From: a virus
Lineage: Duplodnaviria; Heunggongvirae; Uroviricota; Caudoviricetes
Reading direction: 5' to 3' (one strand)
IMG/VR virus record: IMGVR_UViG_3300044675_001501
Coordinates: 1 to 64,000 of that record
DNA: 64,000 bases
Below are positions 5,229 to 39,899 of this stretch, piece after piece. Within the stretch, counting starts at the first letter, position 1, and the number at the start of each line of letters is the position of its first letter. Both the position numbers and the translations under genes were made by a program. The notes under the pieces are model-generated. The model worked only from the letters and a program-made list of their open reading frames with translations. It searched no databases and was not told the origin of the DNA.

Positions 5229-6032
5229 TTATTTTTGCATCATCAAAGCATTGAAGTTAGCAGGAACAACAATGGTCTGCACTCGACCATTCTTAATACC
5301 CTCAGAGATATTCAACGCAGCTTGAGCTTGCATAAAAGCAATAGAACTGGCAGAGTTATTGGCAAGAGCAGCCATACGCTCAGCTTCCTTCTTAGCAGTT
5401 TGAACCTCTACTTCTTTCTGCTTGTATTCATTCTTAGCACGAACCAAAGCATTAGCAGATTCAACAACACTGTCAGCTGGGACTACGTTACGAATTAAGA
5501 CTTGGCTAATTGTAATTGAACCATCAAGTTTTTCTTCAGCAAGATTCTTTTGAATCTCTTCTTGAATCATACGCTCCATATTCTCACGATTGTCTGCCAT
5601 ATCAAGTGCTTCATATTTACGAGCAGCTTTATAGATGGCATTACGAGCATTCTGAACAACGTAGTTATACATTACGTAGGTGTCACCCTTGAACTCAGCG
5701 TGGAATGCTTTGTTCTTAGTTGAGTAGAGTTCTGCTACAGTTTGTGGATTGATGTTGTAAACAACAACAGCATCTAGATCTTTCATAGTGCTATTATCTT
5801 TTGCTACTGGAGTCATATCCTGAAGGACTACGTTAACATCTTTCACTGGGAATGTCAAAACATCACCAATCATAGTTTGGTTAAAAGATCCAGGCAGCAA
5901 CTCTCCTGGTTTAACCTGCTTATCAAAGCCAACTCGAACACCAACCTCGCCTGTCTCAATACGAGTGCAGCCAGTAGCCAGAGCAACAGTAGCAACCAGA
6001 GCAGAGATTTTCAACATTTGTTTCATGATCAT
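5229..6032 (-). CDS. SPFH/band-7 (prohibitin/HflK-like) lipoprotein
   Basis: Signal peptide plus lipobox 'LATGC'. SPFH-type central domain followed by a coiled-coil tail ('KQKEVEVQTAKKEAERMAALAN'). Confidence 0.7.
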   Translation of the reverse strand: MIMKQMLKISALVATVALATGCTRIETGEVGVRVGFDKQVKPGELLPGSFNQTMIGDVLTFPVKDVNVVLQDMTPVAKDNSTMKDLDAVVVYNINPQTVAELYSTKNKAFHAEFKGDTYVMYNYVVQNARNAIYKAARKYEALDMADNRENMERMIQEEIQKNLAEEKLDGSITISQVLIRNVVPADSVVESANALVRAKNEYKQKEVEVQTAKKEAERMAALANNSASSIAFMQAQAALNISEGIKNGRVQTIVVPANFNALMMQK

Positions 6033-6038
6033 TTTCCT

Positions 6039-6215
6039 TTAAAATAAAACAACAATACCAACCATAACAATTACAACCAAAGCAGAAATACCAAGAGAGT
6101 ATGCTGTAATTTTAGCAAGACTCAATTTTTCTTTGTTAGTCATTTTTCTAAACATGTCTATGCCAGTAAAGAAAATAATAAACAAAGAGATGAAAGCGAG
6201 AACTATCTTAATCAT
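6039..6215 (-). CDS. small membrane protein with two TM helices (58 aa), not in ORF track
   Basis: Hand translation gives MIKIVLAFISLFIIFFTGIDMFRKMTNKEKLSLAKITAYSLGISALVVIVMVGIVVLF. Its ATG overlaps the stop of the upstream gene (ATGA). It lies immediately upstream of the SPFH gene, as NfeD-like partners of SPFH proteins do. Confidence 0.45.
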   Translation of the reverse strand: MIKIVLAFISLFIIFFTGIDMFRKMTNKEKLSLAKITAYSLGISALVVIVMVGIVVLF

Positions 6216-6550
6216 TTTTCTTCCTTAGAATATTTTACATCATGCTCATATAGAAAGTAAAGGCAGCACATTGCATGCGCCAAATGATGAATACCAGATT
6301 CAGGATCTAATTGTTCACCTTCTTTCCACGCCCATAGATGTCTTTGCATAGCATCAAAGTATCTACGCTTAGAATCGGGAACAAATTTCCAGTTGTCTGG
6401 TTCATATTTTTCTGCTCCGAATGTAAGGACTTTAACCATTTCTTTCAGAGCGAGTGGTGGGACTAGCCCATATTGAAGTTTGCCACCATCAAACTTTCTA
6501 CCGCCAGTGGTAGAATTCTGAGATTGTTCAATTTCTTTTTTAGTTGCCAT
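6212..6550 (-). CDS. dATP/dGTP pyrophosphohydrolase-like domain protein
   Basis: Motif 'KFDGGKLQYGLVPPLALKEMVKVLTFGAEKYEPDNW' is typical of the phage dATP/dGTP diphosphohydrolase N-terminal domain family. Confidence 0.55.
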   Translation of the reverse strand: MATKKEIEQSQNSTTGGRKFDGGKLQYGLVPPLALKEMVKVLTFGAEKYEPDNWKFVPDSKRRYFDAMQRHLWAWKEGEQLDPESGIHHLAHAMCCLYFLYEHDVKYSKEEK

Positions 6551-6607: not shown

Positions 6608-6868
6608 TTACGCAAAGAGACCAAGGCGATACGCAGCTGCTACCATCGCACGAGTAGGCTTACCAATGCGATACTTTACAACTGGCTCACCCTTACTATC
6701 GCTTTTAGAGTTTGCGTAAACGCAATAACCCTGCTCGCGAAGATTGCGAATAGCAGATGCGGGATGGGCGATACCGAACTGACCACGGATTTGTGAAGCA
6801 GTTAGTTCTTTACCATTTTGTAGAACCTGCAAAAGTTTAGATTGACGACTCATAGATTTAATCCTCAT
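6608..6868 (-). CDS. small putative winged-helix DNA-binding protein
   Basis: 86-aa basic protein with an HTH-like segment 'LTASQIRGQFGIAHPASAIRNLREQG'. Confidence 0.35.
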   Translation of the reverse strand: MRIKSMSRQSKLLQVLQNGKELTASQIRGQFGIAHPASAIRNLREQGYCVYANSKSDSKGEPVVKYRIGKPTRAMVAAAYRLGLFA

Positions 6869-6946: not shown

Positions 6947-7324
6947 TTAGACTTGGATACCGTTAGCACGAAGTTCTGCGGTAAACTCATCTTCATCGAT
7001 AGACACTGGCTCAGCGTCCTCGATAATTTTCTCGAGCTTCTTCTTAGCAGCAGCAGTTTGCTTAGCTACTGCATCTTTGACTGAACCTGTAGACTTCGGT
7101 CCAGGAAACGCAAAAACTCCACGCGAAATTGTGTTGTTAGCAGACAACCAAAGCGGATAACCAATTTTTGGAGCACCGTCGGTGCGCTTCTCATGAAGAT
7201 CCCAAAAAAGTTTTTGAACTTCTTTGGTCGTAATAGTCTCAGCCGAAGCAAGTTTCGGATTGAGAGAAATAAAAGCATCGATACAACGCTTTTGACCCTT
7301 AGACAAATCAGCATATTTCAGCAT
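6947..7324 (-). CDS. hypothetical protein sharing a ~45-aa domain with the N-terminus of the CobS-like ATPase
   Basis: 'KIGYPLWLSANNTISRGVFAFPG' aligns with 'KFPSWLMTNKVGRGLYAIPGG' in the 7451..8626 product. A perfect sigma-70 promoter lies upstream. Confidence 0.5.
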   Translation of the reverse strand: MLKYADLSKGQKRCIDAFISLNPKLASAETITTKEVQKLFWDLHEKRTDGAPKIGYPLWLSANNTISRGVFAFPGPKSTGSVKDAVAKQTAAAKKKLEKIIEDAEPVSIDEDEFTAELRANGIQV

Positions 7325-7378: not shown

Positions 7379-7407
7379 AATTATACCCCGACTGGGCATA
7401 AATGTCA
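7379..7407 (-). promoter_or_regulatory. perfect sigma-70 consensus promoter TTGACA-17-TATAAT
   Basis: Minus strand reads 'TTGACAtttatgcccagtcggggTATAAT'. It lies upstream of 6947..7324. Confidence 0.6.
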
Positions 7408-7441
7408 AGCATAACCCTACAGTTTGCAAGGTTATTTTCAG

Positions 7442-7464
7442 CCTTTAAAATCAAGGACTTACAG
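7442..7464. repeat. 23-nt exact direct repeat copy B (cctttaaaatcaaggacttacag)
   Basis: Overlaps the last codons and stop of the cobS-like gene. It is followed ~33 nt later by the perfect sigma-70 promoter at 7379-7407. Confidence 0.6.
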
Positions 7465-8626
7465 CCTCCCCTTCGGCTACAGGGGTTTCCACAGCGGCAG
7501 CTGAGGACTCTTCAACGTAATCGCCTGTCGAAACCTTTTCGAACAAGTCAACAAAGGCAAGGCGAGTAGCGTCATCAAATCGATTCGTGCAAAGTTCAAT
7601 TGCTTTCTTCTGATTCTTGAAGATCGCATAAGCACGAACGATGTGAATTAAACGGCGAGTAGTAATTGTTTCGTCAACACCACCAGCATCAAAAGTACGG
7701 CGAATAGCATCAGCCCACTTGACCATGTTCTCAGCAAACTTCTCATCAAAGCAACCGTAAGAAGTCATGAGATTAGTAACGATCTTCATCTCAGTACGCT
7801 GCTCAGGGTATTCCTGGTTGAAGGTAACAGCGAATCGCTCAAGAAATGCTTCGTTAAGAACATTGGTACCAATGTAACGACCATCTTCGCTACCCTTACC
7901 TTTTGTGTTTGCGGTAGCAAAAATATTGAAACCACGAGCAGGATAGATAAGTTCGTTTTTCAGTTTGAAGTAGAATGGCTTACCTTCAAGAATTGGCTGC
8001 AAGCACATCAGAGTATTTGAGTTACCAGCATCAATCTCATCAAGAAGCAGAGGAATACCAAGACGCATAGCAATAACGATTGGACCTTCAACGATTTCGA
8101 CATTACCATCGATCAAAGTCTTAGTGCCAATCAACTGATCTTCATCAGTCATGCTGTTAAAGTTAATACGAATCAGCGGACGCTTACGCTTTGCGCAAAT
8201 CTGCTCAATGCTGGTAGACTTACCGTTACCAGTTGGACCGCTGATGTAAGAAGGATAAAAGATCTCAGACTTGATAATCTCATCAAGATCTTTATAGTTA
8301 CCGAAGGGGACATAGTTAGGATCAACCTTCGGAATCAAAGATGAAGTGTCGCTATAATTCACAATAACATTCTCATTTTTTTCGGGAGCCAAAGCTGTAT
8401 TGCCAACAACTGGTGCTGTAATATTACCACCAGGAATAGCATACAAACCACGACCAACCTTGTTAGTCATAAGCCAAGAAGGAAACTTGTCAGTTCCGAA
8501 TGAAGTCATAACCTCAATCAATTGAGAGCGAGAAACGACACCCTTAGAAGAAACATCAGGGAACATCTCAAAAAGTTTGGTTTCAAACTCATCACGATAA
8601 GCAGCAGTAGTCATCAAAATCTCCAT
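7451..8626 (-). CDS. cobS: MoxR/CobS-like AAA+ ATPase (putative cobaltochelatase CobS homolog) with N-terminal extension
   Basis: Walker A 'GPTGNGKST', Walker B 'LLLDEID' and a MoxR-type AAA+ core. cobS is widespread in marine T4-like phages. Confidence 0.7.
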   Translation of the reverse strand: MEILMTTAAYRDEFETKLFEMFPDVSSKGVVSRSQLIEVMTSFGTDKFPSWLMTNKVGRGLYAIPGGNITAPVVGNTALAPEKNENVIVNYSDTSSLIPKVDPNYVPFGNYKDLDEIIKSEIFYPSYISGPTGNGKSTSIEQICAKRKRPLIRINFNSMTDEDQLIGTKTLIDGNVEIVEGPIVIAMRLGIPLLLDEIDAGNSNTLMCLQPILEGKPFYFKLKNELIYPARGFNIFATANTKGKGSEDGRYIGTNVLNEAFLERFAVTFNQEYPEQRTEMKIVTNLMTSYGCFDEKFAENMVKWADAIRRTFDAGGVDETITTRRLIHIVRAYAIFKNQKKAIELCTNRFDDATRLAFVDLFEKVSTGDYVEESSAAAVETPVAEGEAVSP

Positions 8627-8647: not shown

Positions 8648-8676
8648 ATTATACTAGCATTGGCAATTAATGTCAA
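8648..8676 (-). promoter_or_regulatory. perfect sigma-70 consensus promoter TTGACA-17-TATAAT upstream of cobS-like gene
   Basis: Minus strand reads 'TTGACAttaattgccaatgctagTATAAT'. It is 22 nt upstream of the ATG at 8626. Confidence 0.6.
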
Positions 8677-8690
8677 GCAAAATGCAAACT

Positions 8691-10943
8691 TTATGCAACC
8701 AGCCCAACAAAGCGATTCAGAAGGATCCGATTTGTCTTCTGAACATTCAGATACTTGTTGAACGCTTTTGCAATTTGCTTGCTATTCATCTTGTCAGAAA
8801 CTTCCAAGTCTTCATCTTTAATTGCAAGTTTAGACGAAGGGATAATATACAGTTCATCACGACCACAGTTTGTAAGCATAGCGAAGTCATTCTTACGAAT
8901 TTCTTTTTGCATTGCTTCAACCGTAGCCATATCCTCAATAGAACCACCCTTAGCAGAAGTAACATTGTTACGAACAAACCAAGTTAGATCACGGCGAGAA
9001 TTTCTACCGATGTAGAAACCAACAGTAGTAGCGTTATATCGATCTTTGATAATCTGCAGGAACACATTAGTTTGTGTGCTAGATTCCTGAGTGATACGAT
9101 ATTCTTTCTTAGTAATTGGATCAACCAAGTAGTTAAGAACTTTACAACGCTTGTACTCTGGCTCATATACGGTAACGTATTCACGAAGAGACTTGTGATG
9201 ATTACCGTGAAGAGTTCCACCCTCGCCATCAGTCAAAGTAATAAATGTCAGTTTCTCGACATTGTTCTTTGACTTAAACTCAGCAAGATGGTTAGTCATA
9301 AACAGCAACGCTTCATTAAGCGGAGTGCTATTAAGAGTCAATCTAGAACTATAATAATAGAAATTAGAAAGACACATCTGAACCATCTTAGTAAATTCAC
9401 TGTTAGTCATTTTATCAGTGAACAACTCAAGAAGGTAAACATCGGCATTGGTAAAACCGTTGAACGATACATCAGTCTCATCAGGAACTCTGGTATAAGG
9501 ATCTTCTGGGTACAGAATATCACCACGTTCGTTTCTAGGATAACGATCGAAACCATTGCTAAATGCGTAGACACGGAAAGGAATCTGTGCACGCTGGCAG
9601 AACATAACCAGAGTAATAGTTTGCTTCAGCGTATCATGAATGTTATCATACATTGAACCAGACCAGTCAAGCAACATAACCATACCGTGATTCTTTGTAT
9701 CTTTAGTAACAGAGATACGCTTAAAGATGTCATCGGTCAACTGATACATCGCCAGTTTGTTTACGTTCAAATTACCAGTCTTAGAAATTTTACTACGACG
9801 ATAAGCAGTAGCTGACTTACGCATTTCAAATTCTTTGACTAGATAATTGACGATACGGCTACTTTCAGACTTGAATTGTTGAGCAGCTGTGGTCATTCTA
9901 TTAGCAGCTTCTGCTCGCTCCTTATTTCTGTCTGCGTCTGTCAAATAACGATTTGCGAAGTGACGATCGAAGTCTTCATCAAAAACTTTGAAGATTTCTT
10001 TATAAGGTACAACCTGATTGACGTCACGCAAATTGGCAGTCTTAGGTTCCCAACGCTGAACAATAGTATTCGTATCTGCTAGGTCTTGAAGGCGAACACG
10101 CAGGGCACGTTCTGTTTGCGACTCCATTTCAGTGGTAGTCGGTAAGGTAGAAGTATTCTGTGTGTTATCACCAGCAACAAAACGCTTGTTAGAACTGTCA
10201 GACTGTTCTTCATGTTCTGTTTCAGTATAGGGATCATACTCGCCGTCAAAGAAGATTTCATCTTCATCTTCATCTTCATCAACATCACCGAACTCAATTT
10301 CGGTATCGTAATTCATTTGCTCTTCGATATCATCGAGATCTTCTTGAGTGAGTTCTTTGTTGGAGTTGAGTTCTTCCTTACGCTTTTTCAATTCCTCATA
10401 AGAAAAGTTGTAAACTTCAAGAGCAAGATTCTGCACGTCTTTGATAGTGTCGCACTTGTCAACTCGGCGAACAAGTTCCATTTCTTGCGGTGTAAACTTA
10501 ACACCAGAGTTGATGCCAACTTTGTAATAGATGTTGATGCGGTCAATCAGCAAAAGTTTGCTGAGGTCTTTGTCTTTAACTTCAAAGAAGTCTTTGTCGT
10601 TGAGGTATTTGTATCCAGCAATAAAGCATTTACGCAAGCCAGGATACTTGTTCTTCATCATTTTTTCAATGCGAACATCTTCAATCACATTAAGATAACT
10701 GTGCATCTTGTGGTAGTTTTCTGTTTGAAGGTATTCTTGAGAAGTGAACAAAGCATGCCCAACCTCATGGGAAATGAGCATGTCCTCCACATCTTCGTTC
10801 ATTTCTTTCCAAAGAGGGAGGACTAGTGTACGACTGGTGATATCAAATGAAGCAGTAGTCGTTCTTGCGCGAACCACGTTCAGGTTCTCGGCTGCAAGAA
10901 GGCGAGCAAGCATGTCCTTACTATTCATAATGTAGGTCTCCAA
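8691..10943 (-). CDS. vWA-domain protein (CobT-like) with N-terminal HExxH zincin-like motif and central acidic stretch
   Basis: MIDAS motif 'DWSGSM' in a C-terminal vWA domain. Acidic run 'DVDEDEDEDEIFFDGEYD', as in CobT. N-terminal 'HEVGH' with a downstream Glu ('IEDVRIE'). Confidence 0.65.
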   Translation of the reverse strand: METYIMNSKDMLARLLAAENLNVVRARTTTASFDITSRTLVLPLWKEMNEDVEDMLISHEVGHALFTSQEYLQTENYHKMHSYLNVIEDVRIEKMMKNKYPGLRKCFIAGYKYLNDKDFFEVKDKDLSKLLLIDRINIYYKVGINSGVKFTPQEMELVRRVDKCDTIKDVQNLALEVYNFSYEELKKRKEELNSNKELTQEDLDDIEEQMNYDTEIEFGDVDEDEDEDEIFFDGEYDPYTETEHEEQSDSSNKRFVAGDNTQNTSTLPTTTEMESQTERALRVRLQDLADTNTIVQRWEPKTANLRDVNQVVPYKEIFKVFDEDFDRHFANRYLTDADRNKERAEAANRMTTAAQQFKSESSRIVNYLVKEFEMRKSATAYRRSKISKTGNLNVNKLAMYQLTDDIFKRISVTKDTKNHGMVMLLDWSGSMYDNIHDTLKQTITLVMFCQRAQIPFRVYAFSNGFDRYPRNERGDILYPEDPYTRVPDETDVSFNGFTNADVYLLELFTDKMTNSEFTKMVQMCLSNFYYYSSRLTLNSTPLNEALLFMTNHLAEFKSKNNVEKLTFITLTDGEGGTLHGNHHKSLREYVTVYEPEYKRCKVLNYLVDPITKKEYRITQESSTQTNVFLQIIKDRYNATTVGFYIGRNSRRDLTWFVRNNVTSAKGGSIEDMATVEAMQKEIRKNDFAMLTNCGRDELYIIPSSKLAIKDEDLEVSDKMNSKQIAKAFNKYLNVQKTNRILLNRFVGLVA

Positions 10944-10959
10944 GTTTATTACAGTTAGA

Positions 10960-10988
10960 ATTATGCCCTATTTATGAATTAAAAGCAA
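10960..10988 (-). promoter_or_regulatory. sigma-70-like promoter TTGCTT-17-CATAAT upstream of vWA gene
   Basis: -10 at 10960-10965, -35 at 10983-10988. Confidence 0.4.
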
Positions 10989-17229: not shown

Positions 17230-17258
17230 AATTATACTATAATTATTGTAAAATGTCA
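17230..17258 (-). promoter_or_regulatory. perfect sigma-70 consensus promoter TTGACA-17-TATAAT upstream of uvsY-uvsW
   Basis: + strand reads 'attata-ctataattattgtaaaa-tgtcaa' in the 17205..17260 intergenic gap. Confidence 0.55.
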
Positions 17259-17260
17259 AA

Positions 17261-30557: not shown

Positions 30558-33500
30558 TTATGCTTGTGATTCAGTCCAAGACAGACGGCAAGAAGCAGCG
30601 AACGTAGCAGCAGCAGTAACGTCAGAAGCTAGACCAATGTATCTCATACGTAGAGTCAATACGTCTGGACCGTCAGGGAATACACCGTTACCGCCCATAA
30701 TAGAGTTACCAAGAGTTGCAATTTCACGTAGGTCAATAGAGGTCAATGCTTGAGCTCTGTTGTTTGGTGTTGTCAACTGGTTTCCAGGTGGAACACGGAA
30801 CGAGAAGATAACAGAACCTTGGTCAATTGTGTCAGAAATGTTATGGTAAACAACCTGACTCAATGAAGGAGCAGTAACACGCTTCCAATCCAAGTTATCC
30901 AAGTCAGCATTCAGAACCAGAGACAATTCAATCTCGTGGGTTGAAAGAACGTCAAGAGCTTTCAAGTTCAATTGCATGCGGTTAATAATTTCTCTTTCTC
31001 CAAGTAATCCTGGAATACCATTATCAACAGAAGGCGATAGACGTAAAGACAATAGAGGAATTGTTTTAGTCAAATCAACAGCCTGTGAAACTGTATATGT
31101 AGTATTTGTCGCTTGGATAGAAGAAGGTCTTGCGTTAACAACCAATAAGTTTTTAAGAATATTAGATGTTGGAGAAACTCTGACCTGACGCAAATATGGT
31201 TGACTACCGATAGATGAGTTGGTTGGGTTTGCAGTTAATGTACCAGCAACAATACCATTTCCTGATATACCAGAATTAGCATTAATAGAAAAATATGTAT
31301 CTGCATGAGTAGGAATTTCAATAGCAAAACCAATTTCACCAATCAGCTTACCGCCATTGTTATAAGCATACCATTTTCCTAGTTCGAATGCGTTACCAGC
31401 TGTAACTCCACCAGCTGCGGCAAGACTTGGTGCTACTGCGGTACAAACAAAACTTGTTCCAACGTTGTTGTTTGCTGCTCCATATGAAGTCCAAGTTGTT
31501 GATCCTGCCGTATTAATTGTATAAGAACGACCGATAACTAAATTGTTTGCTGTAAAGGTTTGAGATACTGATGCTTGTGTTCCACCAGTAACGCTAATTG
31601 TGCCAGAAGTACCAGTAGAAGTACGAATCTGGTTAGAAGTAGCGGAGAACAAGTATGCTTTATCGTCATCGAAACCACCGTCCATAATAACGGAAGTACC
31701 CCAGTGTGCAAGTTTAGGTATAAAGGAAGGAGAAACGCCAGTATCAACCTCATAGCGAGCTGGCAGGTTACCCGAACGTAGGTACGCTTCTGTTTCTAAG
31801 TTGTTGTGGACAATTTGGTGTACGTATCTAACAACACCATCAGTAGTTTTAAATCCAAAACGAACTTTACCAGCGCCATACCAAGAATAGTCCATGTAAG
31901 CCATCTGAATCTTACGAATATCTAAAGTATATCCTGTTGGACCACTTCCATTACATACATCTAAATTCCAGCTTGATTGTGGAACTCTAATCTCATTAGT
32001 CTTACTTACTACAACATTAGTTGATGTAGAACCTCTATATGATGGTTGAACATAGAACGTATTGTTGTTTGGAATTTCAATAACTTTATATGATTGTCCT
32101 TTAATTACAACATAATCTCCAGAGACTAATTCTGTTACGTATTGTGTTCCTGTTCCTACAATTTGATTGCTGTTAAAAATAACACTTGCAGTTCCACCTA
32201 GCTGAACTGTAGAATTTCTTCTGCATACGCTAAGAGTCGAACCATTATATTCAAAGAACATACCATTTTGATCATCAAATAAACCACAACGAACTGTTGC
32301 GTTATTCCAAGAATTTACGTAGAATTGTGGGCGACCGCTGGAAACGTTGCTATATGGGAAATTCAAACTAATTCTAAATGAATAATCATCTATAATGTCA
32401 TAAATTGTGAACGATCCATTATAGGTAGATCCAGTATCCCCAGAAATAGTAATGTCTAGACCAGCAGTACATCTGTGAGGAACACGAGTAGTTACTGTTG
32501 CATAGTAGTTACTATTACCTGTAACTGAGTTAATAGGTACTGAAGGGCTGAAGTTAATAGCAAACGAAACTTGAATGCCTTTACCTGACTGATAACGGAA
32601 ATACTTACGAGTCTGACGAACAACACGTGCGTTCGGAGAATCTGTTGAGATTAATTCAACACCACCGTCATATGGTCTATGTAACGCTGATGAGTCAGCA
32701 CGCAACAATAGACTAGAAGTAACATCATAGGTGTTTGTTGCTGGGAATCCGTGACAGTTTATTGCGTTTACAGTAGAAGCTGTTGTTGTTGCTGGGATAG
32801 TTGCAGTCGCAGCAGCATTAGTTTGCATAGTAACAACAATAGAAGTGCTATTGCTACCAGCATTAGTTTTGACAATTAATGGAATATTGTCAATCTGAGT
32901 TGTATTACCAGTTCCTGTTAAAACAATGACAGAGCCAGCAGGGAATGGGCAAGGCATTGGGAAAGCGACAGTAATATCTGGGCTGGCGCTTGTTAGTGAT
33001 ATAGAAGTTACTGGCAATTTATATTGTTCATTAATTGGGATAGTATCAACTAAGTTTAACACAGTGCGTGAGTTGACTGTGCTAATTAGAGAAACACCAG
33101 TATTTCCAGGAACAATTAAAGAAACAGTGTGAACACCTGAACCACCAGAAGCAACGATCAAGTTAGTCCCATTTACTGCATCATTATAGGTAGGAGCTAA
33201 GTTGAAGTCGGCAGCTGACGCCCATCTTACATAGTAGATACCACCGTTAATTAGACCAGTTGGTGCAGCAACAGTAGAGTTCCAGCGTACAGACATGCCT
33301 GTCAACATACCGTGCGCAGCACTAGTAAATGTTGAAGAAACGAAAGTTGTTGTTTTTGCAGTGTAAACTGCTGGGTAATTCCAATAGAAGTTATCGCCAG
33401 ATTTAAACGCAGTTGAGAAGTTTGTGTTATTACCAACTACCTTAGTTGTTCCTGCTGCTAGTGCAATAGTACCAGCACCAACAATAGAACCAACAACAGA

Positions 33501-36500
33501 AGCTGCTTCAAATTGATGCGTTCCAGAACCCAAGAAGTTTCCGCTGTTTAAGTTAATTGGAACAACAATAGGATTAACAGCATCTGCTACTGTCGCAGCA
33601 AGTCTGAACCAATCTTCTGTTATTTTAATAATGTAGTATGTTGTATTACTAATTAATGGACCGAATGGTGTTCCTGATGCTGTATATAATACAGGAGTTC
33701 CTGTAATCAATTTGTGTCCGACGCTATAAATCGCATTCCAGTTAAAGTCGACATTAATCTGAGGATTAATACCTAGAACACGTTTAGGAACAACAGCATT
33801 GTTAGGATTATTAAGGGTAAATTTATTTGTTGCGCCACCAGGAGCATTATTTGCGACAGTATACAACCCATCAATGGCTCCAGTAGTAACCCCAGTAGTC
33901 ATTGTGTGGGATGCGCCAGTTCCTTCTGCTGTTATATCAACAACAGTTGATTGACGTAAAGAACCAGTTCCAGAAGGAGTTCCAACAAACTTCACACGAT
34001 CATCTGCGGTATTGTTAATCGCACCAAGTTGAGTCCAGTACAATGTACATGTCGTAGTAGAATCTGCACGAACGTAGTAGAACGCACCATTGGTTAGTCC
34101 TGTAGCTGGTGTTGCTGACAAATATTGAACTAGACGACCAGTAGTAAACCCATGAGTTCCAGTTGTAATAACACCAGTCGCAGTCGCTAAGTTGGTAGTA
34201 TTCTGCGTAAATGAAATCGCAGCAGTATCCCAACCTGTTAACGTATCAGCTAACTGGAATCTATCGGTAGTAGAATTGAAAACGAATTTAGTTGATCCGC
34301 TTGTTAGTCCTCCAACTTCAGAGCCACCACCTGTTGCGTATGTTACAGAGGTTCCATTGTTTAATCCATGATTTTGTTTATAGATGGTGTCGCCAGCGGT
34401 ATTCGATGCTCTTCTTGTGAAGTAATGATTATTTCCAACAAAAGATAGTTTTGCGCCGAGGAAATAAATTCTACCAACATCTGTGCCATTATTATATGCA
34501 GCAAAAGCAGAAGTGTTTAGAGGCTCAGTAGCTTCAGCATCTTTGTAAATTTCTAGTGTTGTAGATGTTGCTGATTTAGCATAATATATCTTATGATCCC
34601 ATAGAGCATACCAAGGAGAAGCTGGTGCAGCAAAACCTTGGAAGTGAATAGGAACAACTGCGCCAACAGGGACGCTGTGCGCTGCAGTCGTAGCAACCGC
34701 AGTAGAGTTACTGGTGAATGCAGTAATCGCAAGGATCTGAGGGTTCAATGCTGGAATTAGCTGAGAAGCAGTACCGTTTGTTGACACTGCTCCATTGGTT
34801 CCACTATTAGCATATGTGAACGTATTAAATGTAGCTTGTAAAATTACTGCAGTTGCATTGTTAAAGGTTGTGTCAGTAACAGAAGCAATAGCAACTTGTG
34901 TTCCAATTTTGAAACCATGAGGAACAGCAGTAGTAACTGTAGCTACGTTATTATCTCTACGAATAGAAGCAATATTTACGCTGTTCGATGGGAATGTATA
35001 TGTTATTGAATTTGTCTCACCAACAGTAATCGCTGTAATAGATCCTCGTTTTAGTGTAGTAGAAGGAATCTTTGTGATTTCAAAGTAATCAGTAATTTGT
35101 GAGCCAACAAGAGGGAAATATGAGTTATCTTTAGGGTGAGCCCAAACACTCTGCAACCAGCTTGTTCCAATAGCAAGGTTATCTTCATCGCGAACTCCAT
35201 GTCCTGTATCAATAACAACCTTCGCAGTAGATATTGTAGAGAATGTTCCTGGAAGACCTCCTGGAGTCATAACATAAACAATAACACTTAGTGCTGGCGC
35301 AGTTCCTGATACGGCTCCAACTCTAATATCATAAGCATTGAAACGAGAATCTCCGATATATGTTAACTCCGCAGTGCCATCAGAAACCGCACCACTTGTG
35401 TGAGAAGGCGCTGATGTGCTGGTTGTTCCAGCAACAGAAACATTGTATAAATTATTATTCCAGAAAACTTTTTGGTTTAGTGTTAACGCAGTATTTGGAC
35501 CCCATGGTGTACCCATTTTTAGTGGTTGGTTATTTGCGTCAAAGAACTTGATTAAACCGCCATGGTGTGCAACGTTGGCTAAAGCGCTACCTCCTGCGAT
35601 ACGTGCTGCTGAAGTAAACGTGAATGTATTAGCACCAGCAGTAATAGTTGGAACTACAATGTTTGCTGTAGTTGACCATGCAGAAGATGGATACGAAATC
35701 GTCATCGATGTTCCACCAGAAGCCACAGCTGCAGTTTTCCAATTCCAATATGCGGTGTCAAATGTTGTGTTAACATTTGTTAGTGTCTTATCTGCAAATG
35801 CGTTAGCTGTATCTAAATGCGCACCAGCAGCGCTTGTTACTGCCAGAGCAGATCCAGCATCAGAAAGAAGTTTAAATCTATCTGTGGTTGCAGAGTCAAC
35901 AATAAAGTATGATCTATTTGTTAAACCAGTAGGAACAGAAGCTGCGGCTTGGGTTCCACCTGATGCCTCCCAGAAAACCAATTCTCCGTTTTGGAATCCG
36001 TGAGACTTAGAATACCAAGATCTACCAGTAGACCATGGTTGTGTATAGTTAATAGGAACAACATATCCATCAACAGAAGTGCCACTAAGAGTTAAATTAG
36101 ATCCACTAACAGTTGTTGACAAATTGAATGTTAGAATATCTGAACTTGCTGAACCATAGAGATCAAAACCAACATTATTGGTTTGAACTGCAAGAGAATT
36201 GTTTAATGGATTTTTAAGTTTAATTGTTAAAGTTCTAGTTGTTGTTCCTGTGTGGTTGGTTATCATACCAACTGGATTTACTGTAGAACCTGGGAATTCA
36301 CCAAAAGGGCTAACCTCATATGATTGATACAATCCAGTATTATTTCTTAAAACAATCTGGTGTCCTTTCGGAGTATTTCTTAGAGGAGTTCCTGTGAACA
36401 GTGCGCCAGCGTTTGATGCGGTAGCAAGAGTGAATGTTGCACCACCTTGCGTAGAGCTTAAAGTGATATCTGCGCTACTTTCGATAGTTTTAACATAATA

Positions 36501-39500
36501 CGTTGTGCCAGAAACAATATTACCGAAAGATGCACCTACAGTGAATGGTTGATTAACTGCAAGACCTTGAGTTGTATGTAGCGTTAGTCTATTAGTTCCA
36601 GCTGTGGTGTTTGTTGCAATAGTTGTTACGTTTGTAGCGCCAAGGAATCCTGACATGACGTCAGTCTTAACTACTGGTAATGGTCCATACGAATAGCAAG
36701 AAACACGCTGAGCTGAAGTAGTAGATAGAGTTGCTAAAGCCCCACCACGAGTAGTAGAAACTGTAAGTGTTGTTCCAGAAAGAACGCTTACAATGTAATA
36801 AAGTTGTCCAGAAGATAATCCACCAACGCTGGCATCAACTTCAAACATCTGACCAGCTTTCATACCAGTAGTGCTTGACACAGTAATTACGTTCGTTGTT
36901 ACAGCAGTGCCAGTAATTGTAGTAAATGCACCCTCATCAAAAGTTAATGATAATGTTGCAGCGTCTTGAGCCGCAAGAGCGATGGTGCCGATTGCGCCAT
37001 CAAGTTCTCCATTCGGACCACTATAACTAGAAAAATTTGCATTACCTGGAGCACTGTTAGATCCATTGGTTGCGCCGAAGGGTAAGGTTACTTGTGATTG
37101 GTGCGTGTCAGAATTTGGATTTCTGGCATACACAATGTTTGGCAATTGAGCTGGTGTCCAGTTATTAGTGAATGCTGTAGTTCCACCAATAGCAGTAGTC
37201 CATACAGCTAAAGGTTGGTTATCTAAAATCGCAGAATTGAGAGTATCTAAACACTGGACAAACATTGTTCCAGAAGCTGTTTGATAGTCATGAACTCTAG
37301 CTGCAGCCATAAAGGAATGTGGACCAAATCTATCTGTAGCAAGAGGGAATCTAGATGCAGCTGCTTGTACACCGAAGTTAACTGAAAGAGCAGTTCTTCT
37401 GTTTGCTTGTGTAACTAATACGCACTGTGTTGTCGAATCTGTAATAATAGTGCCGATTTGAGCAGTAAACGAAGCAGCAGTAGCAGTACCCATTGCTACT
37501 GGATTTGTAAACTGTTTAGGTGTAGCACTAGAATCGTTTACATCAGTAGTTGGTGTATCAGAAATTGTAATCTGAGTGCCAGACAAAACGTCTTTGACGT
37601 AGTATGTAGTATTTCCAAGAATACCAGCAAGGCTACCGTTAGCAGTACCAGTACCAGATGCTGCTCCATTAGTTGCGGCAGTGAATGTTGAACCAACAGC
37701 ATAAGTTACGCCAGATGTTCCAGCAATAGTATTCCACTGAGGTTGTGTAGTTGTTCCAAGAGCAGCAATAGTGTATTGCTGTCCTACAGTAAAATGACCT
37801 GCAGATACTGTTGGACCTTGAATGTGAGTGCTTAGATATGGGGTTACTGCAGTTCCTGGCACGAAACGAATTGCCATACCTGGAGTCATGTTTGCAGTAG
37901 CTGCTACAGTAACAATATTTCTCTCAGCGTTTAGGGAGTTACCGCTGATCACTGGAATGTTCAAGTAGCGATTAATTGTATAAGTACCAGCTGCTCCTGT
38001 ACCAGTGCCTCTTGCAGTAATGTAAGTTCCTGCTGGTACATGTCCATTAGTATCTGACAGATATGCTCCAAGGTCGAATGCAGTACCTGTTACAGTAGCG
38101 TTAACTGTCAATACGTTTCCTGAAATAGAGAACGAGGTTGTGCTACCTGTTTGGTTTAATGTTGCAGTGCCTGTTGTTGTGTTACCGTTATAGAATCCAG
38201 GTTTAGTTCTTACATAATAAACTGTAGGCGCAGTAATTTGCGATCCACCAATAGTAAGACCGCCATTTAGAGCACCCATGTTGTATAGGTATGGTCTATT
38301 ATCGATAAGACCATGAGAAGAAGCGAAAGTAATTACATTGGCTCTCGTTGAAGCGATGTAGTTTGTATCGTTTACACCTTTATGCTCAAGTAGATCTGCT
38401 GCGTTTTTACCCAATGTGAAAAATAAAGTTGGGCGAGATGCTCCAGCTGGGTTGAAGTTATACTTCTCAGCTGTCCATGTATATGGGTTAAATTTAGATG
38501 TGTTGTCTAGATCTAAAGAGTTTTCTGAGTAGCCGTTAGAAGATGATACGGTTTCGTTAGAAGAAGTTGTTCTGATAAACAACTGTCTCTTCCAGCTCTG
38601 CTGTGGATCTAAGAATACATCACCAGTGAATGTTGCATTAACAGCTTCGTTGTTTGGACCTCTAATACTAAAAGTTAAACTAGATAGAGAATAATTTACT
38701 AAATCTGCTTTTATTAATCTAGCATCAATTGTATCGTTTTCGCAGTCAAATGTTACTTCCCAGATTATTGTAGTATTAGTTGATCCGTCTTGAAACTCTT
38801 TACCTTCCCATCTAATTCTAAGGCTGGTAGTTGTTGTTGAAAAATAAAGTTTCTTAAGATTAAAGTCCCCAGTTAAGAAGTTAATCTTTGGAGAATATGT
38901 ATTGTTATTATCAACGCCATTCCAAGCAGCAACATCAACAGCAGGACCATTACCAATTACGCTTGTGCTATTTGTAAAGTGAATAGTCGAATTAGATGTT
39001 ACCCAAACACGGTCAAAGGTTTGGTCGAAAATTTTAAACGGCATTGATTCTGGGAATAGTACTCTGTAAACACCCTCATCAATACCAACGTTTGATGTTG
39101 TTGCATCACCATCAATAATTAATGTCATACCCAGAGTTCCTGGGTCTGTAATGCCAGAAGTTCCAAAGGTTACGTATGCTTTGTCTGTATAACCATTGTT
39201 ATCAGTAACTACAGCATCATCTGTTCTTAGTATTGCTTGGTTTTCAGTGTAAATTAAAGAAGTAACTAATGTTGAATCGAATGTAATCTGCTGCGATGTT
39301 AGGCTGTTTAGAAGAATAAATGTAGTGCCAATAGCAAATCCATGTGGACCATTGGTTGTAATTGTAATAGTAGATGGGCTTTCTCCATCTGTTGCGATCG
39401 CGCCAAGAGATTCTAACTTAAATTCAGTTCCTTGGTATAATGATGCAAGATAAATTTCTGTAGAGCTTTCTCTTACAGAACCTGTAATTGGTGATGTTCT

Positions 39501-39899
39501 TCTTGCTCTGTATGTAAACGATGTTGATGATGGAGTTGTTAAAACAACGTATGTACCGTCAGCAAACTGTAGATTAGCACCTTTAACAATAATTGAGTTA
39601 CCAACAACAAGACCATGATCCTCAGAAGTGGTAACTGTGATCGTGTTGCTTCCTGAGATTGCAGTCATTGTTAAAATGCTTAAACTCAAAGAACCATCTC
39701 GAGCAAAGAAAGTAGGAATATTATTGATGAGCTCTAAAGTTTCCCACTTTGAAGATTGCAAACCGTATTCGAAGTCAGTATCAATTAAGTTAGATGGCTC
39801 AGAGACACGCATCTTAGACACTGGGTCATAGATGGTCTCATTAGGTTCAATATAAACTGAACCAGCGATTCTGTTTGCTTTTAATACGTCAAGAGACAT
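30558..39899 (-). CDS. giant virion structural/fibre protein (3113 aa), paralog of 45419..55813
   Basis: Uninterrupted 9.3 kb ORF. Thr/Gly/Ser/Ala/Asn-rich fibrous composition. The N-terminal ~150 aa and C-terminal ~700 aa are conserved with the second giant ORF ('RVVRQTRKYFRYQSGKGIQVS', 'VRCGLFDDQNGMFFEY', 'SWYGAGKVRFGFKT', ending 'SWTESQA'). Confidence 0.85.
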   Translation of the reverse strand: MSLDVLKANRIAGSVYIEPNETIYDPVSKMRVSEPSNLIDTDFEYGLQSSKWETLELINNIPTFFARDGSLSLSILTMTAISGSNTITVTTSEDHGLVVGNSIIVKGANLQFADGTYVVLTTPSSTSFTYRARRTSPITGSVRESSTEIYLASLYQGTEFKLESLGAIATDGESPSTITITTNGPHGFAIGTTFILLNSLTSQQITFDSTLVTSLIYTENQAILRTDDAVVTDNNGYTDKAYVTFGTSGITDPGTLGMTLIIDGDATTSNVGIDEGVYRVLFPESMPFKIFDQTFDRVWVTSNSTIHFTNSTSVIGNGPAVDVAAWNGVDNNNTYSPKINFLTGDFNLKKLYFSTTTTSLRIRWEGKEFQDGSTNTTIIWEVTFDCENDTIDARLIKADLVNYSLSSLTFSIRGPNNEAVNATFTGDVFLDPQQSWKRQLFIRTTSSNETVSSSNGYSENSLDLDNTSKFNPYTWTAEKYNFNPAGASRPTLFFTLGKNAADLLEHKGVNDTNYIASTRANVITFASSHGLIDNRPYLYNMGALNGGLTIGGSQITAPTVYYVRTKPGFYNGNTTTGTATLNQTGSTTSFSISGNVLTVNATVTGTAFDLGAYLSDTNGHVPAGTYITARGTGTGAAGTYTINRYLNIPVISGNSLNAERNIVTVAATANMTPGMAIRFVPGTAVTPYLSTHIQGPTVSAGHFTVGQQYTIAALGTTTQPQWNTIAGTSGVTYAVGSTFTAATNGAASGTGTANGSLAGILGNTTYYVKDVLSGTQITISDTPTTDVNDSSATPKQFTNPVAMGTATAASFTAQIGTIITDSTTQCVLVTQANRRTALSVNFGVQAAASRFPLATDRFGPHSFMAAARVHDYQTASGTMFVQCLDTLNSAILDNQPLAVWTTAIGGTTAFTNNWTPAQLPNIVYARNPNSDTHQSQVTLPFGATNGSNSAPGNANFSSYSGPNGELDGAIGTIALAAQDAATLSLTFDEGAFTTITGTAVTTNVITVSSTTGMKAGQMFEVDASVGGLSSGQLYYIVSVLSGTTLTVSTTRGGALATLSTTSAQRVSCYSYGPLPVVKTDVMSGFLGATNVTTIATNTTAGTNRLTLHTTQGLAVNQPFTVGASFGNIVSGTTYYVKTIESSADITLSSTQGGATFTLATASNAGALFTGTPLRNTPKGHQIVLRNNTGLYQSYEVSPFGEFPGSTVNPVGMITNHTGTTTRTLTIKLKNPLNNSLAVQTNNVGFDLYGSASSDILTFNLSTTVSGSNLTLSGTSVDGYVVPINYTQPWSTGRSWYSKSHGFQNGELVFWEASGGTQAAASVPTGLTNRSYFIVDSATTDRFKLLSDAGSALAVTSAAGAHLDTANAFADKTLTNVNTTFDTAYWNWKTAAVASGGTSMTISYPSSAWSTTANIVVPTITAGANTFTFTSAARIAGGSALANVAHHGGLIKFFDANNQPLKMGTPWGPNTALTLNQKVFWNNNLYNVSVAGTTSTSAPSHTSGAVSDGTAELTYIGDSRFNAYDIRVGAVSGTAPALSVIVYVMTPGGLPGTFSTISTAKVVIDTGHGVRDEDNLAIGTSWLQSVWAHPKDNSYFPLVGSQITDYFEITKIPSTTLKRGSITAITVGETNSITYTFPSNSVNIASIRRDNNVATVTTAVPHGFKIGTQVAIASVTDTTFNNATAVILQATFNTFTYANSGTNGAVSTNGTASQLIPALNPQILAITAFTSNSTAVATTAAHSVPVGAVVPIHFQGFAAPASPWYALWDHKIYYAKSATSTTLEIYKDAEATEPLNTSAFAAYNNGTDVGRIYFLGAKLSFVGNNHYFTRRASNTAGDTIYKQNHGLNNGTSVTYATGGGSEVGGLTSGSTKFVFNSTTDRFQLADTLTGWDTAAISFTQNTTNLATATGVITTGTHGFTTGRLVQYLSATPATGLTNGAFYYVRADSTTTCTLYWTQLGAINNTADDRVKFVGTPSGTGSLRQSTVVDITAEGTGASHTMTTGVTTGAIDGLYTVANNAPGGATNKFTLNNPNNAVVPKRVLGINPQINVDFNWNAIYSVGHKLITGTPVLYTASGTPFGPLISNTTYYIIKITEDWFRLAATVADAVNPIVVPINLNSGNFLGSGTHQFEAASVVGSIVGAGTIALAAGTTKVVGNNTNFSTAFKSGDNFYWNYPAVYTAKTTTFVSSTFTSAAHGMLTGMSVRWNSTVAAPTGLINGGIYYVRWASAADFNLAPTYNDAVNGTNLIVASGGSGVHTVSLIVPGNTGVSLISTVNSRTVLNLVDTIPINEQYKLPVTSISLTSASPDITVAFPMPCPFPAGSVIVLTGTGNTTQIDNIPLIVKTNAGSNSTSIVVTMQTNAAATATIPATTTASTVNAINCHGFPATNTYDVTSSLLLRADSSALHRPYDGGVELISTDSPNARVVRQTRKYFRYQSGKGIQVSFAINFSPSVPINSVTGNSNYYATVTTRVPHRCTAGLDITISGDTGSTYNGSFTIYDIIDDYSFRISLNFPYSNVSSGRPQFYVNSWNNATVRCGLFDDQNGMFFEYNGSTLSVCRRNSTVQLGGTASVIFNSNQIVGTGTQYVTELVSGDYVVIKGQSYKVIEIPNNNTFYVQPSYRGSTSTNVVVSKTNEIRVPQSSWNLDVCNGSGPTGYTLDIRKIQMAYMDYSWYGAGKVRFGFKTTDGVVRYVHQIVHNNLETEAYLRSGNLPARYEVDTGVSPSFIPKLAHWGTSVIMDGGFDDDKAYLFSATSNQIRTSTGTSGTISVTGGTQASVSQTFTANNLVIGRSYTINTAGSTTWTSYGAANNNVGTSFVCTAVAPSLAAAGGVTAGNAFELGKWYAYNNGGKLIGEIGFAIEIPTHADTYFSINANSGISGNGIVAGTLTANPTNSSIGSQPYLRQVRVSPTSNILKNLLVVNARPSSIQATNTTYTVSQAVDLTKTIPLLSLRLSPSVDNGIPGLLGEREIINRMQLNLKALDVLSTHEIELSLVLNADLDNLDWKRVTAPSLSQVVYHNISDTIDQGSVIFSFRVPPGNQLTTPNNRAQALTSIDLREIATLGNSIMGGNGVFPDGPDVLTLRMRYIGLASDVTAAATFAASCRLSWTESQA

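What the first reader, a model, noticed from the sequence alone, without database searches (positions are those of the whole stretch)
8691..10943. vWA protein fused to an N-terminal HExxH (zincin-like) motif and an acidic linker, partnered with a MoxR-type ATPase
The 750-aa protein has 'HEVGH' about 60 residues from the N-terminus, with a Glu 24 residues downstream, as in a gluzincin. It has a poly-acidic segment 'DVDEDEDEDE' and a C-terminal vWA domain with MIDAS motif 'DWSGSM'. The adjacent gene is a MoxR/CobS-like AAA+ ATPase. The architecture fits either a CobS/CobT cobaltochelatase-like pair or a MoxR-vWA-metallopeptidase system. The presence of cobT alongside cobS in a phage has not been checked here. 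The acidic stretch and vWA match CobT, and the putative peptidase motif matches vWA-MoxR systems, so the function is ambiguous and worth testing.
Basis: partly seen in the sequence, partly recalled or inferred. Interest (0 to 1): 0.7.

Follow-up and report, generated by a model that had tools for sequence, protein, structure and literature searches.

The report
Phage CobT-like protein with intact peptidase motif
This is a new member of the well-known "peptidase + CobS" gene pair of marine T4-like phages: a relative of cobalt-chelatase subunit CobT that, unlike real CobT, keeps an intact zinc-peptidase motif, so it more likely works as an ATP-driven protein-processing machine than in vitamin B12 synthesis.

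Summary
The 750-aa ORF (8691-10943, minus strand; the likely start is the ATG at 10928) has HEVGH at residues 59-63 and EDVRIE at 88-93. It has an acidic disordered linker and an intact MIDAS (D426, S428, S430, T540, D572). A CobS-like AAA+ ATPase gene lies directly downstream (7451-8626).

The gene is not new. It matches PHROG 459 "peptidase" (E 5e-186), a core gene of cyanomyophages and pelagimyophages. The order gp46 - this gene - cobS - gp45 holds in 59 of 65 related viral contigs.

The protein is a CobT-family homologue: zincin-fold N-domain, acidic linker, helix plus "shaft", then vWA, the layout found in the 2026 Brucella CobSTN structures. Canonical CobT has lost HExxH (a scattered HExxH in only 3 of 131 representatives). 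The phage clade keeps H, E and H in 195 of 197 members (the other two are gapped there) and E88, D89, R91 and the MIDAS residues in all 197. Bridging sequences connect the two groups.

Most likely mechanism, inferred and not shown: a CobS-like hexamer grips the shaft, the MIDAS binds a client protein, and the gluzincin domain cleaves it. The client is unknown. A chelatase role is less likely. Interest is moderate.

The parts
8691..10943 (-). Whole gene for the zincin-linker-shaft-vWA protein (750 aa from the TTG; probably 745 aa from the ATG at 10928)
   Evidence: ORF list. Full-length match to PHROG 459, E 5e-186. More than 6800 homologues with E <= 0.001 among the 8000 candidates scored. RBS GGAG at 10941-10938.
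10344..10925 (-). N-terminal minimal gluzincin (M48-like) domain, residues 7-200: backing helix 8-18, three strands 22-43, HExxH helix 50-66, Glu helix 77-99
10755..10769 (-). HEVGH (H59, E60, H63): two predicted zinc ligands and the catalytic base
   Evidence: Present in 195 of 197 family members; the other two are gapped there. Absent from canonical CobT.
10665..10682 (-). EDVRIE (E88-E93). E88 is the candidate third zinc ligand on the next long helix. The E..R.E part of the motif is shared with canonical CobT.
   Evidence: E88, D89 and R91 are present in 197 of 197 members. They align to CobT E97 and R100. Model coordinates could not be inspected.
10134..10343 (-). Acidic, poorly conserved, disordered linker (residues 201-270)
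   Evidence: 26 D/E and no K/R in residues 201-250. pLDDT below 50 for residues 209-264. Column conservation 0.26. Canonical CobT has a disordered linker of about 90 aa.
9690..9938 (-). Long helix (336-388) plus a low-confidence segment (381-416) directly before vWA strand beta-1. This corresponds to the alpha-0 helices and 'shaft' of CobT that enter the CobS ring.
   Evidence: AF2 model. Residues 356-418 are the most conserved block of the protein, 0.69. hhalign against the CobT alignment gives 89% probability, E 2e-6, covering this block and the vWA domain. Shaft behaviour is taken from the preprint.
8829..9689 (-). vWA domain (residues 419 to about 705) with an intact MIDAS: D426, S428, S430 (9654-9668), T540 (9324-9326), D572 (9228-9230)
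   Evidence: Foldseek PDB hits to vWA domains, including NorD of NorQD 9qhe_G. MIDAS residues present in 197 of 197 members. Aligned to the CobT MIDAS.
7451..8626 (-). Partner CobS-like (MoxR-clade) AAA+ ATPase: Walker A GPTGNGKS at 130-137, Walker B LLLDE at 193-197, plus an N-terminal extension of about 90 aa of unknown fold
   Evidence: PHROG 249 match, E 5e-102. Lies downstream of the vWA gene in 59 of 65 related viral contigs.
8648..8676 (-). Perfect sigma-70 consensus promoter (TTGACA-17-TATAAT) in the 64-nt gap before the ATPase gene
   Evidence: There are 3 perfect sites in the window against 0.13 expected. Function is inferred.
10969..10976 (-). CATAAATA, a T4-type late-promoter-like motif 41 nt upstream of the ATG at 10928
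   Evidence: All 10 ATAAATA sites are on the coding strand and 7 of 10 are intergenic. Function is inferred.

Best explanation
The gene encodes the phage-clade form of the CobT family. It is an adaptor with four parts: an N-terminal minimal gluzincin domain, an acidic disordered linker, a helix plus 'shaft', and a vWA domain with a MIDAS. Its partner is a CobS-like AAA+ ATPase.

By homology with Brucella CobST, six ATPase subunits would form a ring and the shaft (about residues 376-416) would insert into the ring pore when ATP is bound. ATP hydrolysis would then move the vWA and zincin domains. By analogy with other MoxR-vWA systems, the MIDAS would capture an acidic residue of a client protein. 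Because the HExxH motif and the downstream Glu are intact, which canonical CobT has lost, the N-domain would then cleave the client or a regulatory segment.

Shown here: the motifs and their invariance, the folds, homology to CobT and CobS, and the conserved gene pairing and synteny. Inferred: ring and shaft engagement, proteolytic activity, and that the system does not serve cobalt insertion. The client is unknown.
For: 1. Architecture and folds. The N-domain model (pLDDT 90.9) gives zincin hits by two methods. The full model shows a disordered acidic linker, a long helix, a disordered pre-beta-1 segment and a vWA domain. This is the layout reported for CobT in bioRxiv 10.64898/2026.07.21.739949.

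2. Homology to CobT.
- hhalign of the family against 50 diverse CobT sequences gives 89% probability, E 2e-6, with the MIDAS aligned.
- hhalign against Rhizobium phage RHph_N2_6 'CobT' gives 96.6%. That protein is a Pfam CobT_C member (E 1.4e-32) and carries HEVGH.
- The Rhizobium phage protein is 33% (N-terminal region) and 40% (C-terminal region) identical to an Acinetobacter plasmid CobT. The plasmid protein matches both Pfam CobT and CobT_C and reads DQEVAK where the phage protein reads DHEVGH.
- An Anaerolineales zincin-vWA protein matches the phage N-domain at 96.5% and the CobT vWA region at 60%.

3. Selection on the site. H59, E60 and H63 are present in 195 of 197 members (the other two are gapped there), and E88, D89 and R91 in all 197, down to about 30% overall identity. 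All 120 database homologues have HExxH, against 3 of 131 CobT representatives, where it occurs at scattered positions. E60 is the catalytic base, not a metal ligand, so its invariance points to hydrolysis rather than metal binding alone.

4. Partner. The ATPase is 31% identical to genuine CobS, has Walker A and B motifs, and lies downstream of the vWA gene in 59 of 65 contigs.

5. Against a chelatase role. The pair, HEVGH included, is present in Pelagibacter phage HTVC008M. Its SAR11 host clade is a B12 auxotroph (PMC9296465).

6. Iyer et al. 2021 independently read the pair as a MoxR-vWA chaperone with a fused metallopeptidase.
Against: - No biochemical data exist for any member of the family.
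- There is no Pfam peptidase or vWA hit at sequence level for the window protein.
- Model coordinates could not be inspected, so E88 as the third ligand is not verified.
- The direct profile match between the N-domain and CobT is weak (4% probability, E 0.009). The N-domain link rests on bridging sequences and on fold.
- Close homology to CobS and CobT keeps a chelatase-type, non-proteolytic role possible.
- The host of this phage is unknown.
Confidence: 0.6

Rival explanations
1. Genuine viral CobST. The pair docks onto host CobN and drives cobalt insertion into the corrin ring, raising cobalamin supply during infection. This is the classic 'auxiliary metabolic gene' reading. HExxH would be an irrelevant relic or a metal-handling site.
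For: The ATPase is clearly CobS-like. The partner has the CobT architecture and CobT_C-like vWA homology. The hypothesis is stated by Liu et al. 2021, and the B12 or nucleotide-synthesis labelling of cobS and cobT is still used in the literature.
Against: Canonical CobT works without HExxH, yet the phage clade keeps H, E, H and E in every member where the position is present, which a relic would not show. The ATPase scores 106 bits against a 558-bit CobS equivalog cut-off. The pair is present in a phage of SAR11, a B12 auxotroph. The same family turned up on contigs binned with Flavobacteriales and Poseidoniales, groups also reported as B12 auxotrophs. The gene sits in the replication and recombination block, with no cob genes nearby.
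Confidence: 0.15
2. Virion-morphogenesis chaperone and protease. This specific version of the main model was proposed by Iyer et al. 2021. The MoxR-vWA pair would help assemble, and would proteolytically process, head or tail proteins.
For: The proposal, and the precedent of a MoxR-vWA system required for tail development in Acidianus two-tailed virus, are in PMC7824862. A T4-type late-promoter-like CATAAATA lies 41 nt upstream of the start codon; 7 of the 10 such motifs in the window are intergenic and all 10 are on the coding strand.
Against: The gene lies between gp46/gp47 and gp45/gp44, not among the structural genes, in nearly all relatives. In other lineages the pair lies near dnaE or ruvB. 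The ATPase gene has a perfect sigma-70, early-type promoter. The only cyanophage core proteins reported in virions are T4-GCs 15 and 190, although a chaperone need not be packaged.
Confidence: 0.2
3. Non-proteolytic metal site. The HExxH-Glu site would hold a metal ion that the AAA+/vWA machine delivers to, or uses to mature, a client metalloprotein. This would resemble NorQD, CoxDE or CbbQO maturation systems. No peptide bond would be cut.
For: Many characterised MoxR-vWA systems mature metalloenzymes. NorD from NorQD is among the best structural matches to the vWA half. In a minority of related contigs the gene lies near ribonucleotide reductase genes.
Against: E60, the general base and not a ligand, is present in all 195 members that cover the position. 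The fold matches are to proteases. No precedent is known to me for a zincin fold acting as a metallochaperone.
Confidence: 0.1

Closest known systems
Aerobic cobaltochelatase subunit CobT (Pfam PF06213 + PF11775) with CobS; Brucella melitensis CobSTN structures (bioRxiv 10.64898/2026.07.21.739949)
   Same: The domain order is the same: an N-domain with helix, three-stranded sheet and helices (M48C-like), an acidic disordered linker, helix plus shaft, then a vWA domain with a MIDAS at almost the same residue number (D422 in CobT, D426 here). The partner is a CobS-type AAA+ ATPase. Homology of the C-terminal half has 89% hhalign probability, and bridging sequences link the two groups.
   Different: Canonical CobT has no HExxH, whereas the phage clade keeps HExxH plus Glu in every member where the position is present. 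Neither Pfam CobT nor CobT_C matches the window protein at E <= 1. The ATPase is far below the CobS equivalog cut-off and has an extra N-terminal extension of about 90 aa. There is no cob gene context, and at least one host clade cannot make B12.
Cyanomyophage and pelagimyophage core gene pair 'peptidase' (T4-GC146; PHROG 459) + cobS (T4-GC150; PHROG 249)
   Same: Full-length PHROG 459 match, E 5e-186. The synteny gp55-gp47-gp46-[this gene]-cobS-gp45 is identical. All motifs are shared.
   Different: It is at most 35% identical to the protein of any record in the phage collection searched. In this lineage the cobS-gp45 interval also carries a 125-aa ORF, a wHTH gene, a MazZ-like gene and an SPFH gene.
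MoxR AAA+ / vWA chaperone pair with N-terminal metallopeptidase in 'group 2.2' jumbo phages (Iyer et al. 2021, PMC7824862)
   Same: The described architecture is the same and the phages are T4-like.
   Different: That paper gives no link to CobT and proposes a virion-assembly role. The accessions it cites were not compared directly here.
Minimal gluzincins and M48/M56 peptidases, and the ArdC / SprT-Spartan / Wss1 zincins
   Same: These are the best structural matches to the N-domain. HExxH lies on the equivalent helix, preceded by a three-stranded sheet and a backing helix.
NorQ/NorD, CbbQ/CbbO, RavA/ViaA and Mg-chelatase ChlI/ChlD motor-adaptor pairs
   Same: Each combines a MoxR-clade AAA+ ring with a vWA/MIDAS adaptor. 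NorD is a top structural hit, and the ATPase has the CbbQ_C small domain.
   Different: Those adaptors carry no zincin domain, and their clients are metalloenzymes.

Membership tests
CobT (aerobic cobaltochelatase subunit) | Match to the Pfam CobT N-domain model PF06213 | tested here: not met
   There is no hit at E <= 1 for the window protein or for any of the 37 family members. The profile-profile match to a CobT alignment is only 4% probability, E 0.009, though colinear.
CobT (aerobic cobaltochelatase subunit) | CobT_C-type vWA domain (PF11775) preceded by helices and a shaft | tested here: inconclusive
   There is no direct Pfam hit. hhalign against 50 CobT sequences gives 89%, E 2e-6, over helix, shaft and vWA. 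hhalign gives 96.6% against a phage protein that is itself a PF11775 member.
CobT (aerobic cobaltochelatase subunit) | Overall layout: zincin-like N-domain, disordered acidic linker of about 90 aa, vWA domain with MIDAS | tested here: met
   AF2 models and composition, compared with the preprint description.
CobT (aerobic cobaltochelatase subunit) | Adjacent CobS-type AAA+ ATPase | tested here: met
   31% identity to genuine CobS, E 3e-33. TIGR01650 E 1.7e-30, but below the equivalog cut-off.
CobT (aerobic cobaltochelatase subunit) | Works with CobN in the aerobic cobalamin pathway | not testable with these tools
   The host is unknown and there are no cob genes in the window. A homologous pair occurs in a phage of B12-auxotrophic SAR11.
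Phage 'peptidase' family PHROG 459 / T4-GC146 | Full-length profile match and conserved position between gp46 and cobS | tested here: met
   E 5e-186 over residues 7-750. Synteny.
MoxR-vWA system with fused zincin (Iyer et al. 2021) | MoxR-clade AAA+ ATPase (AAA_5 with CbbQ_C) next to a vWA protein with an intact MIDAS and an N-terminal HExxH domain | tested here: met
Gluzincin metallopeptidase | HExxH on the active-site helix after a beta-sheet, with the third ligand Glu on a following helix | tested here: inconclusive
   The sequence motifs are invariant and the secondary-structure order fits. Fold hits are to gluzincins.
Gluzincin metallopeptidase | Zinc binding and peptide-bond hydrolysis | not testable with these tools
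   This needs biochemistry.
Pfam DUF2201_N + DUF2201 (putative metallopeptidase + VWA-like; recalled from memory as a possible home) | Match to these Pfam models | tested here: not met
   No such family appears among the hits at E <= 1 for the window protein or the 37 members.
Known anti-phage defence proteins (PADLOC) | Profile match | tested here: not met
   There are no hits for the vWA protein and only E > 0.02 noise for the ATPase.

The most novel reading that the evidence does not exclude
The near-universal 'cobS/cobT' pair of marine T4-like phages, widely counted as a vitamin-B12 auxiliary metabolic gene and used as a cyanophage marker, may not be a chelatase at all. It may be an AAA+-driven protease. 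Its position beside the replication and recombination genes, next to dnaE or ruvB in unrelated elements, and its structural resemblance to ArdC, Spartan and Wss1 leave open that it acts on proteins bound to DNA or on the replisome, in the manner of p97-Spartan.
Probability: 0.15. Interest if true: 0.7.

Novelty: new member of a known kind. Interest (0 to 1): 0.4.

Why it matters
cobS is treated as a vitamin-B12 auxiliary metabolic gene in marine virus ecology, and it is used as a marker of myo-cyanophage communities. If its obligate partner is an active, ATPase-coupled zinc peptidase and not a chelatase adaptor, that metabolic reading would need revision. One of the most abundant phage gene pairs in the ocean would then be a protein-remodelling and proteolysis machine with an unknown client. 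The comparison also shows how canonical CobT probably arose: from a zincin-vWA adaptor whose peptidase site decayed.

Tried and rejected
- PDB sequence searches with the protein and with the family profile found nothing meaningful.
- PADLOC gave no hits for the vWA protein, so a defence-system reading was dropped.
- NCBIfam gave no usable hit for the vWA protein.
- tblastn of the vWA protein against plasmids found nothing at 1e-3, although the ATPase has relatives on 4416 plasmids.
- The AFDB50 fold library was unavailable. Full-length structural neighbours such as CobT models could therefore not be retrieved.
- A homologue search seeded with Sphingomonas CobT returned only near-identical Sphingomonas proteins. 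It was replaced by the representative-library search.
- Direct hhalign of the family against single CobT sequences was weak. It became informative only with a diverse CobT alignment and bridging sequences.
- Chance occurrence of HExxH was rejected because the motif is invariant across the family.
Full report
**What is there**

The window is part of an uncultured marine T4-like myophage. All genes run on the minus strand. They include gp45, gp46, gp47 and gp55, and a segment inside ORF 17904-19211 matches cyanophage major capsid (gp23) genes.

The ORF at 8691-10943 (-) encodes 750 aa from a TTG. A GGAG lies 9 nt before the ATG at 10928, and the relatives P0002, P0006 and P0007 begin at MNSKDML, so a 745-aa product is more likely. 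HEVGH is at residues 59-63 and EDVRIE at 88-93. Residues 201-250 hold 26 D/E and no K/R. DWSGS is at 426-430. The next gene downstream, 7451-8626 (-), is an AAA+ ATPase. It matches AAA_5 and CbbQ_C and matches TIGR01650 CobS at E 1.7e-30. It is 31% identical to a genuine Sphingomonas CobS and has Walker A and B motifs.

**It is a known phage family**

- Pfam, NCBIfam and PADLOC give nothing useful for the 750-aa protein.
- PHROG 459 "peptidase" matches it end to end, E 5e-186.
- tblastn finds it in 464 phage records, almost all Synechococcus or Prochlorococcus myophages plus Pelagibacter and a few others. Identity is at most 35%, and most are annotated "peptidase" or hypothetical.
- The big protein database holds more than 6800 homologues with E <= 0.001 among the 8000 candidates scored.
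- The order gp55-gp47-gp46-[this gene]-cobS-gp45 is the same in S-SSM5 and in Ochrobactrum phage OC, where the gene is annotated CobT. HTVC008M has the same pair upstream of gp45.
- Of 65 related viral contigs with room downstream, 59 have the CobS-like gene on the same strand, with a median gap of about 160 nt. One has it upstream and five lack it nearby.
- A scan of 185,579 species genomes found 38 loci. Most are short or metagenome-binned contigs from many phyla, which I read as phage DNA.

**Literature**

- Liu et al. 2021 call the pair cobST and say cobT is "mistakenly annotated as a peptidase".
- Zaragoza-Solas et al. 2020 list cobS and cobT as AMGs of pelagimyophages.
- Iyer et al. 2021 describe, in T4-like jumbo phages, a MoxR-vWA pair whose vWA protein has an N-terminal metallopeptidase, and they propose a virion-assembly role.
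- A July 2026 preprint on Brucella CobSTN reports the layout of real CobT: an N-domain of peptidase M48C-like fold, a disordered linker of about 90 aa, and a C-domain in which a "shaft" (Q373-R413) precedes a vWA domain with MIDAS D422/S424/S426/N518/D546. The shaft is disordered without nucleotide and enters the CobS ring with ATP. That paper does not mention HExxH or zinc.

**Structure prediction**

The full-length AF2 model has pLDDT 75.8. It shows:
- helix 8-18, three strands (22-43), then helices, with HEVGH on helix 50-66 and E88 on helix 77-99;
- a disordered segment at 209-264;
- a long helix at 336-388;
- a low-confidence segment at 381-416 directly before beta-1, which carries D426;
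- a vWA domain.

**Homology to CobT, and the key difference**

A genuine Sphingomonas CobT matches Pfam CobT and CobT_C (E 2.4e-85 and 1.4e-104) and has no HExxH. Among 131 full-length CobT cluster representatives, only 3 have an HExxH, at scattered positions. All 120 database homologues of the window protein have HExxH, ExxR[IVLM]E and DxSxS.

Profile comparisons:
- The family against 50 diverse CobT sequences gives 89% probability, E 2e-6, over helix, shaft and vWA, with the MIDAS aligned.
- The N-domain comparison is weak (4%, E 0.009) but colinear. It places non-ligand residues of CobT opposite H59, E60 and H63, and it aligns E88 and R91 with the conserved CobT E97 and R100.

Bridging sequences close the gap:
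- Rhizobium phage RHph_N2_6 "CobT" carries HEVGH...IEDTMIE and is a Pfam CobT_C member, E 1.4e-32. It matches the window family at 96.6%.
- That protein is 33% and 40% identical, in its N- and C-terminal regions, to an Acinetobacter plasmid CobT. The plasmid protein matches both Pfam CobT models and reads DQEVAK where the phage protein reads DHEVGH.
- A cellular Anaerolineales pair, an AAA_5 ATPase with a 528-aa zincin-vWA protein beside ruvB, matches the phage N-domain at 96.5% and the CobT vWA region at 60%.

The CobT N-domain is therefore a decayed zincin, and the phage clade is a branch that kept the site.

**Selection**

The alignment has 197 members: the window protein, 74 viral-contig ORFs, 120 cluster representatives and 2 isolate proteins, reaching down to about 30% identity. 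H59, E60 and H63 are present in 195, and the other two are gapped there. E88, D89, R91 and all five MIDAS residues are present in all 197. The block from the helix to the shaft (356-418) is the most conserved part (0.69), and the linker the least (0.26). The invariance of E60, the general base and not a ligand, favours hydrolysis over mere metal binding.

**Mechanism**

Most likely (confidence 0.6): a CobS-like hexamer grips the shaft of the adaptor, the MIDAS binds a client, and the zincin domain cuts it.
- Shown: the motifs, folds, homology and gene pairing.
- Inferred: ring engagement, proteolysis and the absence of a chelatase role.

A chelatase role (0.15) is weakened on three counts. The HExxH site is conserved although canonical CobT does not need it. 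The ATPase scores far below the CobS cut-off. And the complete pair is present in HTVC008M, whose SAR11 host clade is a B12 auxotroph.

The virion-assembly version (0.2) gets some support from a late-promoter-like CATAAATA 41 nt upstream of the start. Against it, the gene sits in the replication and recombination block, and the ATPase gene has its own perfect sigma-70 promoter. In other lineages the pair lies near dnaE or ruvB. This leaves open a DNA-associated client, which is speculative.

**Verdict**

The finding is real and correctly described. It is a new, divergent member of a known and very abundant phage family. Its two published names, CobT and metallopeptidase-vWA, describe the same protein. 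I did not find the contrast between the intact HExxH in the phage clade and its loss in canonical CobT stated in the papers I read, and it bears on the B12 interpretation of phage cobS. Interest is moderate (0.4).

Noticed in passing
window 6212-6550 (-): A 112-aa ORF matches only the N-terminal domain of dATP/dGTP diphosphohydrolase (PF18909, E 5.5e-35; PHROG 801). It is conserved a few genes downstream of cobS in many related contigs.
   Followed up: partly
window 6947-7324 (-) and residues 48-73 of the ATPase (about 8408-8485): A 125-aa ORF with no Pfam or PHROG match shares a short motif (P.WL..N...RG..A.PG) with the N-terminal extension of the CobS-like ATPase. It is conserved just after cobS in relatives and has its own perfect sigma-70 promoter at 7408-7380. 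It may be a paralogous module or a regulator of the ATPase.
   Followed up: partly
window 7380-7408, 8648-8676, 17231-17259 (-): There are three perfect TTGACA-17-TATAAT sites against 0.13 expected by chance. These are likely strong early promoters.
   Followed up: partly
window, ten ATAAATA sites (e.g. 17824, 20287, 24475, 39928): All ten ATAAATA motifs are on the coding strand, and seven are intergenic, 27-102 nt before a start codon. This fits T4-type late promoters.
   Followed up: partly
window 5229-6032 (-) and 6608-6868 (-): An SPFH/Band 7 protein with a lipoprotein-like N-terminus (PHROG 200) and a small winged-helix HTH_39 protein lie between cobS and gp45.
   Followed up: no
window 30558-39899 (-) and 45419-55813 (-): Two giant ORFs of 3113 and 3464 aa. 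They were not examined.
   Followed up: no
L004 (A. baumannii plasmid NZ_CP046537) and L124 (Rhizobium phage RHph_N2_6): In both elements a CobT-CobS-like pair lies a few genes from dnaE. The plasmid ATPase has a ROS/MucR-like N-terminus. Relatives of the ATPase occur on 4416 PLSDB plasmids, mostly conjugative enterobacterial ones.
   Followed up: partly
L119 4028-7383 (Anaerolineales MAG, 89-kb contig): A cellular AAA_5 ATPase plus a 528-aa HExxH-vWA protein lie beside ruvB. The vWA protein bridges the phage family and CobT. Similar short matches occur in L118 and L120-L122.
   Followed up: partly
L091 (Nonlabens xiamenensis strain 1Q3, 188-kb contig): An isolate genome assembly contains a 188-kb contig that carries this phage gene. 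It may be a co-sequenced T4-like phage.
   Followed up: no
L125 (Staphylococcus Kayvirus): The distantly related AAA_5 ATPase of Kayvirus phages is followed by a DUF7192 protein, not a vWA protein. Not all phage 'CobS-like' ATPases have this partner.
   Followed up: no
L071, L061 (viral contigs): In a minority lineage the zincin-vWA gene has no ATPase within 7 kb. It lies downstream of ribonucleotide reductase and RNase H genes and beside radical-SAM or sugar-modifying genes.
   Followed up: partly
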